Positions 15,001 through 21,000 of a DNA stretch of 64,000 nt are shown here, in pieces. This DNA comes from Leucoraja ocellata (taxonomy: Eukaryota), in contig JAWMAR010000049.1 of the NCBI GenBank assembly GCA_036785375.1, positions 1,674,001 through 1,738,000 of the forward strand, given 5' to 3'. Position numbers: made by a program. The stretch's first letter is position 1. Every line of letters starts with the position of its first letter.

Positions 15001-18000
15001 ACAAGATTATGCCTGTTCCCAGGTGATTCCACTACGAGAGTATACAAGCAAGTGTGTCTGTATGTGTACGTCCATGCACAACAGTTTGGGCTGCAGTCAT
15101 ACCGGGCTTCCTCACCTCTCGTCTCAAGATGTTTAAGAAAGAACCGCAGATGCTGGAAAAATCGAAGGTCGACAAAAATGCTGGAGAAACTCAGCGGGTG
15201 AGGAAGATCTATGATGATGCCTCACCCGCTGTTTCTCCAGCATTTCTGTCTACCTTCTAGTCTCAAGATGGTGGTTTTTAGTGTGTAATGGCCACTCCAT
15301 TTTACCAGAAGTCACACACAGAGACATCTTCAACTCCTCAGAAAATACATTAACAACAGCAGCAGCTACATGCAGACTTTACCACATTGTTTTGGTCACA
15401 CTTGCATGTTAATCAGTAAGCTGCCTACCACACCCCATTTCACACGTTTAACCACTGAAGATAAGTGTGCTGAGAGGACACTGCACAACAAACAAAACCT
15501 TGAAGGAAGAATGACAAAGAATACTGTAATAAATACAAACATTAATTTCTTCTACTTAATGCCTCATAGCACTAAAATGATCAAATTCTCTGAAGCAGAA
15601 TTGTCTATTTTCATAGTGCAAAGTCGTACGGTCATAAGGAATAGGAGTAGAATTAGGCCATTTGGCCCATCAAGACTACTATGCCATTCAATCATGGCTG
15701 ATCTATCTCGCCCTCCTAACCCCATTTGCCCCATTAGACACCAGTACTAATCAAGAATCTATCCATCTCTGCTTTAAATATATCCACTGACTTGGCCTCC
15801 ACAGCCTTCTGTAGCAAAGGATTCCACAGATTCACCACCTTCTGACCATAGGAATTTCTCATCATCTCCTTCCTAGAAGAACGCCCTTTAATACTGAGGC
15901 TATGACCTAGACTCTCCCACTAATGGAACCATCATCTCCACATCCACTCTATCCAAGCCTTTCACTATTCTGTATGTTTCAATGAGGTCCCCCCTCATTC
16001 TTCTAAACTAGCAAGTACAGGCCCAGTGCCTACATATTCCTGGGATCATTCTTGTAAACCTCCTCTGGACCCTCTCCAGAAACAGCACATCCTTAAACAG
16101 GTATGGGGTCCAAAATTGCTCACAATATTCCGAATGCGGAAGATAGACAAAAATGCTGGAGAAACTCAGCGGGTGAGACAGCATCTATGGAGCGAAGAAA
16201 ATAGGTAATGTTTCGGGTCGAAACAGACATTATTCCAAATGTGGCCTTATAGATCCTCAACATTACATCCCTGTTTTTGTATACATGCCCTCTTGAAATA
16301 AATGCTAGCAGTTACAATAGACAATGGACAATAGGTGCAGGAGTAGGCCAATAAGCCCTTCGAGCCAGCACCACCATTCAATGTGATCATGGCTGATCAT
16401 CCCCAATCGGTACCCCGTTCCTGCCTTCTCCCCATATCCCCTGACTCCGCTATTTTTAAGAGCCCTATCTAGCTCTCTCTTGAAAGCATCCAGAGAACCT
16501 GCCTCCACCGCCCTCTGAGGCAGAGAATTCCACAGACTCACCATTCTCTGTGAGAAAAAGTGTTTCCTTGTCTCCATTCTAAATGGCTTACTCCTTATTC
16601 CTTACTCCTTATTTAGTTTGCTTTCTTCCAATGGAATTGTCTGGGAAATGAATTATTTATCTTGTCAGAACAAATTAAGAAAGAATTTGATTCTGGACAC
16701 TTGCCTGAACCATTTGATGAATATGGAGACAGAGAGAAAACAAGCATATGGTAATATCTAAGACTTGATTACTAATATGGAAGTCATTCAATTGCAACTA
16801 TTCACAGGACACAGCCTCAAAGGTGAAAGTTTACTACCAATCCACCTTGAGGTGGAGACCACCACTTTGAACTTTGATTAGTTTAGAGATGCAGTGCAGA
16901 AACAGGCCCTTCGGCCCATGCCGATCAGCGATCACCCTATCCAGTGACACTATCCTACACACGAGGGAAAATTTACAATTAATCAGCCTACAAACCTGTA
17001 TGTCTTTAGAGTATCATGGGGAGAACGTACAAAGTCCGTACAGAGAGCATCTGTAGTCAGAATCAAACCCGGGTCTCTGGCGCCGTAAGGCAGCAGCTCT
17101 AGGCACCACCGTGCTGGCCAGCAGCCATACATGTGGTCAAGGCATTCCCTCAATGTATCGACAAATTAGTTCGTTACCAGGCAGTGCAAGGTCAAATATA
17201 TTGATTTACTTTGGAATCCAACAGGCCACAGTGGAGAGCATAGACTTGCTTGTGCAAGAAGGAAGGCACTGGTGAACTATTGCCCATTTCATACAGCAAG
17301 CAAGTGCCCACATAGCCACAGGATGTCTGCTATTGTACTGGTTATGATGCTAGAATCATGATTCAGATACACATCCTGCTGGTTCACAGACTGGTTGCAA
17401 TTCCACCAGAACAACAACAGGAAATTTAAATTCAGCTAAATTTATCAATCTGGAATAAAAAGCTCGCAACCAGGAAGCCAGCAGTTGAATTCCGTGGAAT
17501 ATTTATCAATTATATATATTGGATTATCAGTTCATTTTAATGCTGTTTCCTAAGACTTGTCTGAATAGCAATTTTTCATTTCAAATGTTTAACAAATATA
17601 CAGGAATTTAAATATAATGTACACAAAGTATATGTACAACAATCACAAGAACTATGTCTGCCATGAGAGCATTTTGGGTTGTCAAAATATTGTTTACTGC
17701 CTAGAAAGAAAAGCCACATGAATGAAAATAAACTGTAAGGGAAGTTCATAAATTCAACTTAAAAAGCACAGCTTTCAATCCAGACTGTGCTGAACCTTGT
17801 CAAGATGCCCTTGGGTTGTAATGATTGGTGGTTTTGCTTCTGGAAGAAATGCTGCTGCTCTTTCCATTTGACTTATTGAACAGCGTGTGGTTGTTACAGT
17901 GAACCAAGCAAGAAACTGCACTTCCAAAACAGCACCATTTCTGAATTGTTCAGACATTCTCTCTCTTACCTTCTCTCTCGCTCTCTCTCCCTCTCAAATT

Positions 18001-21000
18001 CATTTTGTTGTACATACAGTTTACCTTAAGAAAATTATGTTTGCAGATTAGGTAAAGTGATGAGCGTGACTGTGACTCTAAATCAAATGTTTAAGAAGGA
18101 ACTGCAGATGCTGGAAAAATCAGAGTTAGACAAAAATGCTGGAGAAACTCAGCGGGTGAGGCAGCATCTATGGAGCGAAGGAATAGGTGACGTTTCGGGT
18201 CGAGACCAAAAAACCACCATCTTGAGATGAGAAGGTAGACAAAAATGCTGGAGAAACTCAGTGGGCGAGGCAGCATCTACGATGCTGCCTCGCCCGCTGA
18301 GTTTCTCCAGCATTTTTGTCTACCTATGACTCTAAATAAGACTCTTTTGGTCTATCTCAAAGCACCAATGAGGCTTTGCAGCGGGTTCAATCCTGACCTT
18401 GGGTGCTGGCTTGTGGAGTTTGCATGTTCTCACTTGTGACTGCATAGGTTTCCTCCCACATCCCAAAGATGTGCAGTTAATCGGCCCTCTGTAAATTGCC
18501 CCTCGTGTGTGGGAATGGATGAGAAAGTGGGATAACATAGAAGTAGAGTGCGAGCAGGTGCCCGAAGGTCGCCGTGAACTCGATAGGCCGAAGGACCCAC
18601 TTCCATGCTGTATCTCTAAATTAAATGAAATGAATTAGTTTAATTGTAATTATTTGTGTATAAAATCACGAGAGGAATAGATTGGGTAGACACAGAGTCT
18701 CTTGGCCAGAGTAGGGCAGTACGTCGGCGCAGCGGTAGAGTTGCTGCCTTACAGCGCTAGAGACCCGGGTTCAATCCCGACTAAGGGTGCTGTCTGTAAG
18801 GAGTTTGTACGTTCTCCTCGTGACCCGAGTGGGTTTTCGCCGAGATGTTCGGTTTCCTCCCACACTCTTAAGACGTGCAGGCTTGTAGGTTAATTGGCTT
18901 AGTGCATGTAAAAACAAATATTGTCCCTAGTGGGTGTACGATTAGTGTTAATTTGCAGGGACCTGATGGGCCAAAGGGTCTGTCTCTGCACTGCATCTCT
19001 AAACTAAACTGAAGTAGGTGAATGAGGGACCAGACGACATAGGTTTAAGGTGAAATGGGAACAATGTTTTCCACACAAAGGGTGGTGGGTGTATGGAACG
19101 AGCTGCCAGATGAGGTAGTTGAGGCTGGGATTATCTCAACGTTTAAGAACTGGTTAGACAGGTACATGGACTGTAAACGCCTATCTCACCAGGGACTAAC
19201 TCTACTGAACGTTTTTCCTTCTATTATTTATTGTGTAAAAGAATATGTGTGTTATGATTGTGTTTATAATTTGTTTGGTTGTTTTGTTGTTTGTCTTTTG
19301 CACAAAAGTCCGCGAGCATTGCCACTTTCATTTCACTGCACATCTCGTATGTGTATGTGACAAATAAACTTGACTTGACTTGACTTGGATAGGACAGGTT
19401 TGGAGGGATATGGACCAAATGCGGGCAGGTGGGACTAGTGTAGCTGGGACATGTTGGCCGGTGTAGCAAGTTGGGCCAAAGGGCCTTTTCCCACACTGTA
19501 TCACTCTGACGCTAATTCATTGCATTGTTAAGTGTACCTATTTAATCTTCACTTTCATTTATTTAAAAAAATCTAATCGCCATTGTACAAGAGCTTGTTA
19601 AAGGCAGCCATTATTAACAATTTCACAATGATGCTTTCAGCTTTATTGTGCTACATGATTAAATGAGAGCAGCCTCTTTAATCTCATTGAAACACATCCG
19701 TATTCATTCTACTCACCCGTTTCTAAGCAGACGTTTGTTAAATTTGTGTGTCAGAGTTATCTGGTGATTACACTTGCAGATGCAAGTGTACCAGGTGTCT
19801 GGAGGGCATGCACAGGGAGTACAGAAACCTTGTGTACCATCACTCCCCTCCCTCCCTCCCAGCCACACTGGCACCTCTTGCCCCTCTTGCAGTAGGTAGG
19901 GGCTGCAGTTGTCACTTTGGCCTCATTAGTCACCACAGAGCCCTCACAACCAACGATGAATGAGTAGGAAGGAACTGCAGATACTGGTTTAAACCGTAGA
20001 CACAAAAAGCTGGAGTAACTCAGCAGGTCAGACAGCATCTCTGGAGAAAATAGATGACGTTTCGGGTCGAGACCCTTCTTTAGACTGAGGGCCAGGGGGA
20101 AGGGAAACGAGAGACATAGACGGTGATGCAAGAGAGATTTAGAACAAATGAATGAAAGATATGCAAAAAAGTAACCATGATAAAGGAACCAGGCCATTGT
20201 TAGCTGTGGGCGAGGTGAGAACTGCTGTAGCAGTAGAGGTGCTGCCTTATAGTGCCAGAGACCTGGGTTCAAATCCTAACTGAGGGTGCTACCTGTGTGT
20301 AGTTTGTACCTTCTCCCTGTGACCACATGGGTTTTACCAGGTGCTCGGGTTTCCTTTGACACTCCACATGCTAAATTGTGCCGAGTGTGTAGGGTAAGGT
20401 TGCTGGTTGGCGTGGACTCGGTGGGCCGAAGGTTCTCTATCTCGAAAGTCTAATATAATTCAAATGTATTCAAAAGATAATTTCAGTAATCACAGGGATG
20501 CTACACTTGGCCACACTTCCCATGAATATGGAAAAGGAGGAAAAATAAATATAAAAATAAAGGAGGTCAAAAAAACAGGCAGGTTGCACTATATAGTGAA
20601 ACATTCAAACTTCATTACAAGAACACAGCAGCACGTGACAATAGACTCCTGGGATTGAACAGTTAGCTGTACGACACTTGGACTTGAGTAAAGTGCAAGA
20701 TATTGGAGTATAGATTTGAATCATTTTTCTCAAACTGGAAAATTTCACAGTAATGGGTTCAAGAGCAAGTCCAGTTTGTCCTGGGCCTCCTCCTTTGTCA
20801 GAGTGAGGCCCAGCGCAAATTGGAGGAACAGCACCTCATATTTTGCTTGGGTAGCTTACACCCCAACAGTATGAACATTGACTTGTCTAACTTCAAATAG
20901 GCCTTGCTTTCCCTCTCTCCATCCCCTCCCCCTTCCCAGTTCTCCCACCAGTCTTACTGTCTCCGACTACTTTCTATCTTTGTCCCTGACATCAGTCTGA

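What the first reader, a model, noticed from the sequence alone, without database searches (positions are those of the whole stretch)
15167..18325. A Penelope mini-element contains an inverted copy of a neighbouring element together with its unique flank
Seen: 18209-18227 (aaaaaccaccatcttgaga) is the exact reverse complement of 15261-15279, the TSD and right flank of the element at 15132-15259. It runs on into agaaggtagac… and a hairpin with the same collapsed loop (…atcta(c/t)gatg…). The 18-kb copy reads tctcatctcaagatg, against tctcgtctcaagatg (left TSD) and tctagtctcaagatg (right TSD), consistent with copying before later decay. The whole composite has its own flank duplication (tgactctaaat). 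Inference: during integration the PLE machinery, or repair synthesis, switched template to DNA or pre-mRNA 3 kb away, right at the hammerhead stem II. This amounts to local hopping with flank transduction.
Basis: partly seen in the sequence, partly recalled or inferred. Interest (0 to 1): 0.75.

Follow-up and report, generated by a model that had tools for sequence, protein, structure and literature searches.

The report
Retroelement insertion carrying neighbour's flank copy
One small Penelope-type retroelement insertion carries, between its two arms, a copy of the end of an older sister element 2.9 kb away plus 24 bases of that element's flanking DNA, which is a rare trace of a copying enzyme switching to a nearby template.

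Summary
18209-18232 is the reverse complement of 15256-15279 (22 of 24 bases; exact 19-mer), found nowhere else in the window, and it abuts the same arm end as in element A (15132-15255). A and B's hairpin also share one turn-around point; the other four hairpin copies of the subfamily turn elsewhere. A's 15-nt duplication on both sides shows the flank is native to A, so copying ran A to B. An exact 11-nt duplication brackets all of B, so B entered as one unit.

The family fits Penelope-like elements: minimal hammerhead core in 5 copies, inverted truncated arms, and a 34-nt tail at one end only in 6 of 6 hairpin copies.

Best reading: the growing strand left its template at the point where this subfamily's arms usually end, then copied A-locus DNA or RNA. 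Later break repair gives the same product and is not excluded.

- B's tail arm is not derived from A, so A did not hop.
- The switch point is the subfamily's usual arm end.
- B's 3-nt loop is flipped relative to the flank, so copying was not one straight read.

The genome-wide, orthologue and long-read checks could not be run. This is one case, of moderate interest.

The parts
15117..15131 (.). Left target-site duplication of element A (tctcgtctcaagatg)
   Evidence: 14 of 15 identical to 15256-15270; the junction layout matches the sister copies
15132..15165 (-). 34-nt tail of element A. This is the constant outer end (tttaagaa...); the element's RNA sense is the minus strand here
   Evidence: the same end in 6 of 6 hairpin copies of the subfamily. 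Matches the 30-40 bp 'tail' in PMC8557442 and PMC11167929
15166..15209 (-). Element A, arm L (the long arm; with loop base(s) it follows the family sequence up to catctat(g))
   Evidence: (I5, I6)
15210..15212 (.). Element A, loop tat
   Evidence: hairpin fold, z = -8.9
15213..15255 (+). Element A, arm R (the short arm; tail-less, ends gtctacct)
15256..15270 (.). Right target-site duplication of element A (tctagtctcaagatg)
15271..15279 (.). First 9 nt of A's unique right flank (gtggttttt), the part that is also copied into B
   Evidence: the flank has no other copy in the window
18073..18083 (.). Left target-site duplication of composite B (tgactctaaat)
   Evidence: exactly two occurrences in the window
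18084..18089 (.). Six unexplained extra bases (caaatg) between the duplication and the element
   Evidence: tcaa-atg resembles A's left junction tcaagatg (7 of 8 with one gap)
18090..18207 (-). Composite B, tail plus long arm. It ends ...gggtcgagacc, the usual arm end of the subfamily. Not derived from A
18208..18232 (-). Inverted copy of A's right duplication plus flank (18209-18232 is the reverse complement of 15256-15279, 22 of 24), with one more A in the run
   Evidence: (I1)
18233..18277 (-). B hairpin, left arm (next to the flank copy). With loop bases 18278-18279 it follows the family sequence up to catcta, so it is the 'long' arm. Carries C at 18266 and T at 18262
   Evidence: (I3)
18278..18280 (.). 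B hairpin, loop tac (same orientation as A's tat on the plus strand)
   Evidence: hairpin fold, z = -18.6
18281..18325 (+). B hairpin, right arm (short, tail-less, ends gtctacct next to B's right duplication). G at 18292 pairs with C at 18266
   Evidence: I3: 45 nt, 98% complementary
18327..18337 (.). Right target-site duplication of composite B (tgactctaaat)

Best explanation
B (18090-18325) is one double-ended integration of a short non-autonomous Penelope-like element. Normally the two cut target strands each prime a cDNA. One starts at the distal start site and carries the 34-nt tail. The other starts at the proximal start site and begins aggtagac. The two cDNAs are then joined head to head, which gives the hairpin copies seen six times in this window. 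In B, the tail-side strand ran to the usual 5' end of this subfamily's template (…gagacc). It then continued on nucleic acid of the older neighbour A, 2.9 kb away, either DNA or a nascent transcript. It entered at the T-run of A's right flank, copied 24-25 nt of flank plus A's target duplication, and went on into A's arm. It then linked up with B's tail-less arm. The loop orientation requires at least one more switch between the interchangeable arms of the palindrome, either during this synthesis or as a later replication template switch. Such a later switch would also account for the same T-to-C change on both B arms. Shown by the sequence: the copy, its direction (A to B), the single duplication around B, and the family layout. 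Inferred: the timing (at integration), the enzyme, the kind of template, and the order of switches.
For: - Copy and junction: 22 of 24 flank bases match, abutting the same arm end, with 0.00 matches expected (I1, 17).
- It is the only two-copy exact repeat of 16 nt or more next to a family core that is not family or other-repeat sequence, among 156 such repeats.
- A and B's hairpin share the turn-around catcta(t/c)gatg. The other 4 of 6 hairpin copies each turn elsewhere.
- Direction: A's 15-nt duplication lies on both sides of A, and the flank runs on into unique DNA.
- One event: an exact 11-nt duplication brackets all of B, and the inner hairpin has no duplication of its own.
- Layout: the tail lies at one end only and the other arm ends gtctacc(t) in 6 of 6 hairpin copies, with duplications of roughly 10-16 nt (the 11.5-kb copy's boundaries are ambiguous). 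This matches a tail at one end plus an inverted 5'-truncated copy (PMC8557442). It also matches cleavage and extension of both strands from two adjacent internal start sites that bound the tail (PMC11167929).
- Switch point: 5 of 7 subfamily copies have an arm ending within a few nt of gaga(c/t)c, and none runs further. This fits run-off followed by a jump.
- A source only 2.9 kb away argues for a template that was physically near.
- Template switching between inverted-repeat arms is reported to homogenise arms and invert spacers (PMC8604942, listing abstract; 'CM + loop inversion' class in PMC8794818).
Against: - The loop: a straight copy of A's arm R, loop and arm L predicts catc-ata-gatg on B's plus strand, but catc-tac-gatg is seen. 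An extra switch has to be assumed.
- No microhomology is visible at gagacc|aaaaaa.
- B's hairpin shares none of A's private substitutions, so only the flank and the turn-around tie it to A.
- In the one biochemical system described, RNA 3' of the start sites is needed for initiation (PMC11167929). A mini-copy transcript would lack this, which argues against ordinary initiation on A's RNA.
- Nothing in the window dates the event to integration rather than later.
- Only one example was found among at least 38 family core matches in 64 kb.
- No Rfam hammerhead match and no reverse transcriptase in the window, so the Penelope assignment rests on structural hallmarks.
Confidence: 0.5

Rival explanations
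1. Post-integration break repair. B first entered as an ordinary full palindrome like the 28-kb copy (…gagacc tatg ggtctc…). The palindrome later broke near its centre. One end was repaired by copying from the homologous neighbour A, with dissociation and re-invasion between A's two arms.
For: The product is the same as in the best explanation. B's outer ends are fully canonical. The tail arm ends exactly where the two arms of the 28-kb copy meet. A source in cis 2.9 kb away is typical of ectopic repair templates (recalled knowledge). Two invasions into the interchangeable arms give the seen combination of loop orientation and right flank (reasoning). A appears somewhat more decayed than B, roughly 8 private changes in 139 nt against 8-9 in about 247 nt. 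That allows a long interval but is not significant.
Against: It needs the loss of about 40 nt of B's original right arm, precise retention of its tail-less end, and a non-homologous join. No remnant of an original centre is left. It adds an event where the integration-time reading needs none.
Confidence: 0.27
2. Ordinary retrotransposition of a read-through or read-in transcript of the A locus (LINE-style 3' or 5' transduction). On this reading A itself hopped 2.9 kb and took its flank along.
For: The flank is contiguous with A's arm end as in the source. The copied flank stops in a T-run (15275-15279), which could end a transcript (recalled: T-runs terminate RNA polymerase III).
Against: The flank lies inside B between two element pieces, not at an end next to the duplication. 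B's tail arm has about 35 nt that A lacks and none of A's private changes. The loop is flipped relative to the flank. A random landing within 3 kb of the source is very unlikely in a vertebrate-sized genome. A copy lacking RNA 3' of the start sites may not be a competent template (PMC11167929).
Confidence: 0.08
3. Assembly artefact: palindromic, highly repeated sequence was mis-joined, or a chimeric consensus was created at 18.2 kb.
For: PMC8557442 notes that such tandem or inverted structures cause assembly problems. B's hairpin is a nearly perfect 45-bp palindrome (I3).
Against: The A and B copies differ at about 10% of positions and in their indels, as expected of two old genomic loci rather than a duplicated read. 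B is bracketed by an exact duplication in unique DNA. The window has no N.
Confidence: 0.06
4. Shared sequence without copying: the 24-mer belongs to a subfamily consensus or to a preferred target motif hit twice.
For: Part of the flank is a recurring motif. AAAACCACCATC (up to 1 mismatch) also lies at the target of the 28-kb copy and, as a variant, in two family tails. That is 5 matches against 0.51 expected, all element-associated.
Against: The motif covers only 12-14 nt. The other 10-12 nt (ttgaga..aga) also match between A and B but not at 28 kb. The inner hairpin has no duplication of its own. The full 24-mer occurs only twice in the window.
Confidence: 0.04

Closest known systems
Complex Penelope-like element insertions: inverted 5'-truncated copy plus a 30-40 bp tail at one end (PMC8557442; mechanism in PMC11167929)
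   Same: Head-to-head arms, a 34-nt tail on one side only, two fixed start points, variable target duplications, and a minimal hammerhead core in longer family members.
   Different: In B the two arms are bridged by sequence copied from another locus, including non-element flank. The passages and sections I read do not describe that. My search for Penelope-like + template switching + transduction returned only general reviews holding all three terms.
LINE-1 twin priming, 5' inversion and chimeric retrocopies made by reverse-transcriptase template jumps; R2 end-to-end template jumping (recalled, not read here)
   Same: Both target strands prime synthesis, the polymerase leaves the template's 5' end for another template, and joins need little or no homology.
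   Different: These belong to a different element class. The acceptor here is a genomic neighbour's end plus flank rather than an abundant cellular RNA, and the source lies only 2.9 kb away.
LINE-1 3'/5' transduction of flanking DNA (recalled)
   Same: Unique flank of a source copy is found at a second locus, which identifies the source.
   Different: The flank is internal and inverted, not terminal. Most of the new insertion does not derive from the source copy.
Templated insertions ('filler DNA') at double-strand-break junctions; replication-based template switching such as FoSTeS/MMBIR (recalled)
   Same: A short stretch (about 118 nt) copied from a site a few kb away in cis, in inverted orientation, with signs of more than one switch.
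   Different: It sits inside a retroelement insertion intermediate, and no microhomology is visible at the entry point.
Short-range template-switch mutations in hairpins (PMC8794818, passages; PMC8604942, listing abstract)
   Same: A matching change on both stem halves (18266/18292) and an inverted 3-nt loop in B's hairpin.
   Different: This would explain only the secondary oddities of B's hairpin, not the flank copy.

Membership tests
Penelope-like element (non-autonomous derivative) | Minimal hammerhead core in the repeat: CUGANGA, an unpaired base, stem II, GAAA, no helix III, cleavage triplet | tested here: met
   5 copies in the window match CTGANGA-N-stem-GAAAY-RTC (0.00 expected), on the strand whose 3' end is the constant end. 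The description is taken from PMC4209133. A and B themselves lack the CUGANGA box because their arms stop at stem II. Helix I was not convincingly paired by eye.
Penelope-like element (non-autonomous derivative) | Match to a curated hammerhead covariance model | tested here: not met
   no hammerhead family reached gathering score or E up to 5. The only hits were sub-threshold microRNA-like matches to the hairpins. Minimal hammerheads without helix III may fall outside those models (inference).
Penelope-like element (non-autonomous derivative) | Inverted 5'-truncated copy next to the unit, and a 30-40 bp tail at one end only | tested here: met
   6 of 6 hairpin copies of the GAGAAAC subfamily (4.5, 11.5, 15.1, 18.1, 28.0 and 47.4 kb). 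The tail is 34 nt. The TAAC-type inverted copies were looked at but not scored systematically; the one at 40 kb has tail sequence on both arms.
Penelope-like element (non-autonomous derivative) | Reverse transcriptase plus GIY-YIG endonuclease ORF of the autonomous partner | tested here: inconclusive
   Pfam scan of the 21 stop-to-stop ORFs of 120 aa or more (of 78 ORFs of 90 aa or more). None matched a reverse transcriptase or GIY-YIG domain. A partner may lie elsewhere in the genome, which could not be searched.
Flank transduction by read-through transcription (LINE-1 style) | Source flank lies at the end of the new copy, collinear with a copy of the source element, inside the new duplication | tested here: not met
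   the flank is internal (18208-18232), B's tail arm is not from A, and the loop is flipped relative to the flank.
Templated insertion from a nearby locus (template switch during integration or repair) | Inserted stretch identical in origin to a unique sequence nearby in cis | tested here: met
   22 of 24 bases, source 2929 nt away, no other copy in the window.
Templated insertion from a nearby locus (template switch during integration or repair) | Microhomology at the switch points | tested here: not met
   none at gagacc|aaaaaacc. The exit point lies within arm sequence common to all templates, so it cannot be placed.
Templated insertion from a nearby locus (template switch during integration or repair) | Source junction unique in the genome (only the two loci) | not testable with these tools
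   Only the 64-kb window is held.

The most novel reading that the evidence does not exclude
The enzyme of this Penelope-like family recognises DNA that resembles its own tail (AAAACCACCATC, the complement of gatggtggtttt), and A's right junction kept that motif after insertion. A later particle acting in this neighbourhood re-cut or engaged A's junction while integrating at B. The A-side primer strand with its new cDNA (flank plus long arm) was built into B. B would then be a fossil of a two-site, double-ended integration intermediate. It would give a natural read-out of how these elements choose targets and join their two cDNAs, and it would predict that fillers between arms are often templated in cis.
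Probability: 0.12. Interest if true: 0.6.

Novelty: new variant of a known kind. Interest (0 to 1): 0.35.

Why it matters
How Penelope-like elements finish integration (how the two cDNAs are joined, why inverted copies and one-sided tails arise) is still described as undefined (PMC8557442; PMC11167929). A composite whose bridging piece can be traced to a dated neighbour 2.9 kb away records which strand left which template and where. It shows that the joining step can use foreign templates, and it hints at a role for physical proximity. If a genome-wide survey found many such cis-templated fillers, it would make that step testable from sequence alone. As a single case it remains a curiosity. 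It also warns annotators that 'unique' flank can be embedded in these repeats.

Tried and rejected
1. Rfam at gathering score and at E up to 5 gave no hammerhead. The sub-threshold microRNA and plastid-UTR hits all lie on the palindromes and are taken as matches to hairpin shape.
2. Pfam on 21 long ORFs gave no Penelope reverse transcriptase or endonuclease and no host gene, so the transcription direction over A (the pre-mRNA idea) could not be assessed.
3. Is A's flank a repeat? blastn-short of both flanks of A and B against the window found only the A/B match plus 12-nt motif hits.
4. Do the fillers of two other composites (22.26 kb, 40.23 kb) come from nearby? No source was found in the window.
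5. A second, nested hairpin insertion into B was rejected: the inner hairpin has no duplication of its own and the outer 11-nt duplication brackets everything.
6. B as the source of A was rejected: A's duplication lies on both sides and its flank continues into unique DNA.
7. A and B made in one simultaneous event is not excluded but unsupported. A looks somewhat more decayed than B (counts too small to test).
8. Snap-back of a single cDNA as the origin of the hairpins was considered. It explains the 3-nt loop geometry but not the tail-less end, so the double-priming account of PMC11167929 was preferred.
9. Paper search for a 16-nt word of the family core found 0 papers. The search for Penelope + skate + elasmobranch found nothing on this family in the listing.
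10. One search failed on a length limit and was repeated without the over-long item.
11. Not run: the genome-wide search for the junction, orthologous loci and long reads. No eukaryotic genome collection was open.

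
Full report
**What is there**

The window has no N. It is dense in one repeat family: the 19-nt core AATGCTGGAGAAACTCAGC matches 38 times at up to 3 mismatches, against 0.03 expected. I do not take the window for human. The family has the hallmarks of Penelope-like elements, which the papers I read report as absent from mammals.

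Two subfamilies can be told apart. One has GAGTAAC in the core, and its copies run on to ...gggtcgagacccttcttcagactga. The other has GAGAAAC. The GAGAAAC subfamily occurs once as a single arm (16.1 kb) and six times as hairpin-shaped copies, at 4.5, 11.5, 15.1 (A), 18.1 (B), 28.0 and 47.4 kb.

**Layout of the family**

In all 6 hairpin copies:
- one end is a constant 34-nt 'tail' (tttaagaaggaactgcagatgctggaaaaatcga, with small variations) followed by an arm that starts aggtagac;
- the other arm is inverted, lacks the tail and ends gtctacc(t);
- the whole is bracketed by a target duplication of roughly 10-16 nt (the boundaries are ambiguous at 11.5 kb).

The constant end means that the element's RNA sense is the strand ending ...cttcttaaa. 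On that strand, 5 longer family members keep CTGANGA, one unpaired base, a 4-5 bp stem, GAAAY and RTC (0.00 expected). This is the 'minimal hammerhead' without helix III, with an unpaired base before stem II, described for Penelope-like elements (PMC4209133, part 1 read).

Rfam gives no hammerhead match. No reverse transcriptase or GIY-YIG ORF was found among the 21 ORFs of 120 aa or more (78 ORFs of 90 aa or more were listed). The assignment therefore rests on structure.

The structure matches the published descriptions:
- inverted 5'-truncated copies and a 30-40 bp tail at one end (PMC8557442, passages);
- cleavage and extension of both target strands, with reverse transcription starting at two adjacent internal sites that bound the tail (PMC11167929, main text read).

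**The observation**

Element A:

| Feature | Coordinates | Sequence / note |
|---|---|---|
| Left duplication | 15117-15131 | tctcgtctcaagatg |
| Tail | 15132-15165 | 34 nt |
| Arm L | 15166-15209 | |
| Loop | 15210-15212 | tat |
| Arm R | 15213-15255 | |
| Right duplication | 15256-15270 | tctagtctcaagatg |
| Unique flank | from 15271 | gtggtttttagtgtg... |

Composite B:

| Feature | Coordinates | Sequence / note |
|---|---|---|
| Left duplication | 18073-18083 | tgactctaaat |
| Extra bases | 18084-18089 | caaatg |
| Tail plus arm | 18090-18207 | ends gggtcgagacc |
| Copy of A's flank | 18208-18232 | aaaaaaccaccatcttgagatgaga |
| Hairpin left arm | 18233-18277 | |
| Loop | 18278-18280 | tac |
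| Hairpin right arm | 18281-18325 | |
| Single base | 18326 | a |
| Right duplication | 18327-18337 | tgactctaaat |

The support for the match is as follows.
- 18209-18232 is the reverse complement of 15256-15279 at 22 of 24 positions, and the 24-mer has no other match at up to 3 mismatches (0.00 expected).
- The match runs on into the arm: 49 nt at 94% (I1).
- Overall, 15166-15279 aligns with the reverse complement of B at about 89%.
- Of 156 two-copy exact repeats of 16 nt or more in the window, those lying next to a family core are all family or other-repeat sequence, except this pair.
- B's outer duplication is exact and unique.

**Direction and unity**

The 15-nt duplication lies on both sides of A, and the flank continues into sequence with no other copy in the window. 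The 24 bases are therefore native to the A locus, and B's copy was made after A had inserted.

The three readings fit one change in each lineage:
- tctcg at A's left side is taken as ancestral;
- tctag at A's right side carries one change;
- tctca in B carries a CpG-type change.

B's inner hairpin has no duplication of its own, and one duplication brackets the whole, so B entered as one unit. A and B's hairpin also share the same turn-around (catcta t/c gatg), whereas the other four hairpin copies each turn at a different point.

- B's tail arm carries about 35 nt (ggagcgaagg...gagacc) that A lacks, and none of A's private changes. A did not move as a unit.
- The point where B's tail arm stops is not special to B. 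In 5 of 7 GAGAAAC copies (11.5 kb both arms, 16.1 kb, B, 28 kb, 47 kb) an arm ends within a few bases of gaga(c/t)c, and none goes further. The subfamily's template seems to begin at stem II, so it lacks the CUGANGA box altogether.
- The loop is asymmetric and so gives an orientation. In A, the arm that follows the family sequence furthest (to catctat) is the tail arm, which lies far from the copied flank. In B, the corresponding long arm lies next to the flank copy. A straight copy of 'flank, arm R, loop, arm L' predicts catc-ata-gatg on B's plus strand. The sequence reads catc-tac-gatg, which is A's plus-strand loop with one substitution.
- Both B arms carry the same derived base pair (C 18266 / G 18292), where A, B's tail arm and the other copies have T/A. 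B's arms are 44 of 45 complementary (I3), whereas A's arms differ at about six places.

**Mechanism**

The best account is a template switch.

1. After both strands of the B target were cut and primed (as in PMC11167929), the tail-side strand reached the end of its template.
2. Instead of continuing on the other cDNA, as in the ordinary hairpin copies, it continued on A-locus nucleic acid. It entered at the T-run, copied flank and duplication, and then ran into the arm.
3. Arm sequence is common to A's two arms, to the element RNA and to B's other cDNA, so further switches are easy there. One such switch, or a later replication template switch within the palindrome, gives the flipped loop.
4. 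The literature reports that such switches both homogenise arms and invert spacers (PMC8604942, listing abstract; PMC8794818, passages).

The 2.9-kb distance argues for a template that was physically close, either DNA or a nascent transcript. A landing this close by chance would be very unlikely in a large genome.

A later break at the centre of an originally ordinary palindrome, repaired from A with re-invasion and an end join, yields exactly the same sequence. I rate it about half as likely because it needs additional events. Ordinary read-through transduction, misassembly and a shared consensus are unlikely, for the reasons given under the rivals.

**Limits**

These tests are genome-wide uniqueness of the junction, orthologous loci and long reads. 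Timing, enzyme and template type are inferences. The supplements of the papers were not consulted.

**Comparison and novelty**

The parts are known:
- Penelope-like complex insertions;
- polymerase template jumps and twin priming in LINEs (recalled);
- templated fillers at breaks (recalled).

A Penelope-like insertion whose bridging piece is traceable to a neighbour's end plus flank was not described in what I read. A search for Penelope-like + template switching + transduction returned only general reviews holding all three terms. That search covers open-access text only. I class the finding as a new variant of a known kind, resting on a single example.

Noticed in passing
15267-15278 (-), 28005-28016 (+), 303-314 (-), 33864-33875 (+), 18210-18221 (+): AAAACCACCATC (up to 1 mismatch) occurs 5 times against 0.51 expected, always element-associated. 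It lies at the edge of the target duplication of A and of the 28-kb copy, in B's copy of A's flank, and as a variant (gcagatggtggttt) of the family's own tail in two copies. The 28-kb target also ends in ttcttcttaag, which resembles the tail's 3' end. This suggests insertion into tail-like DNA, as reported for the Penelope endonuclease (cited in PMC11167929).
   Followed up: partly
18084-18089: Six bases (caaatg) lie between B's left duplication and the tail. tcaa-atg|tttaagaa resembles A's left junction tcaagatg|tttaagaa (7 of 8 with one gap). This could be chance, a target preference, or a trace of A's left flank.
   Followed up: no
GAGAAAC-subfamily copies at 11.5, 16.1, 18.1, 28.0 and 47.4 kb: Arms of this subfamily never extend past gaga(c/t)c(c), the 5' side of hammerhead stem II. 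The subfamily appears to lack the CUGANGA box and hence a complete ribozyme, unlike the GAGTAAC subfamily.
   Followed up: partly
16140-16230: A single tail-less arm of the same subfamily lies between A and B, nested in another repeat. It is bracketed by a 14-nt duplication (tattccgaatgcgg / tattccaaatgtgg, 12 of 14). It starts at the proximal start site and ends about 6 nt past gggtcgaaac.
   Followed up: partly
21850-22330: Three and more head-to-tail units of about 66 nt from the GAGTAAC-type core (acagagtgctggag...gacgtttc), followed by inverted segments and a tail-bearing arm. This is a retrozyme-like tandem arrangement (compare the preprint 10.64898/2026.07.22.740005, abstract).
   Followed up: no
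11557-11601 (read on the minus strand): A 19-nt unit (aaggaaataggcaacgttt) is repeated in tandem inside one arm of the 11.5-kb hairpin copy, next to a second small palindrome (gggccgaaaccc / gggtttcggccc).
   Followed up: no
28817-29482 (+): A 222-aa open frame matches Pfam ALKBH8_N (PF09004, E = 1.3e-13). From recall, this domain is often seen at the end of LINE-type ORFs. It was the only Pfam match among the 21 ORFs tested.
   Followed up: no
4491-4607, 11505-11563, 15159-15262, 18226-18331, 47452-47561: Sub-threshold Rfam matches to plant and animal microRNA precursors and a plastid 3'UTR hairpin fall on the palindromic copies. All are below gathering score and are taken as matches to hairpin shape only, although such palindromes would fold as long hairpins if transcribed.
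   Followed up: partly
15620-16640 and 16880-17110, 18380-18600: Other interspersed repeat families surround the two elements, for example pairs 15675-15703 / 16370-16398 and 16953-16977 / 18490-18514 (D3 and I10). They were not identified.
   Followed up: no
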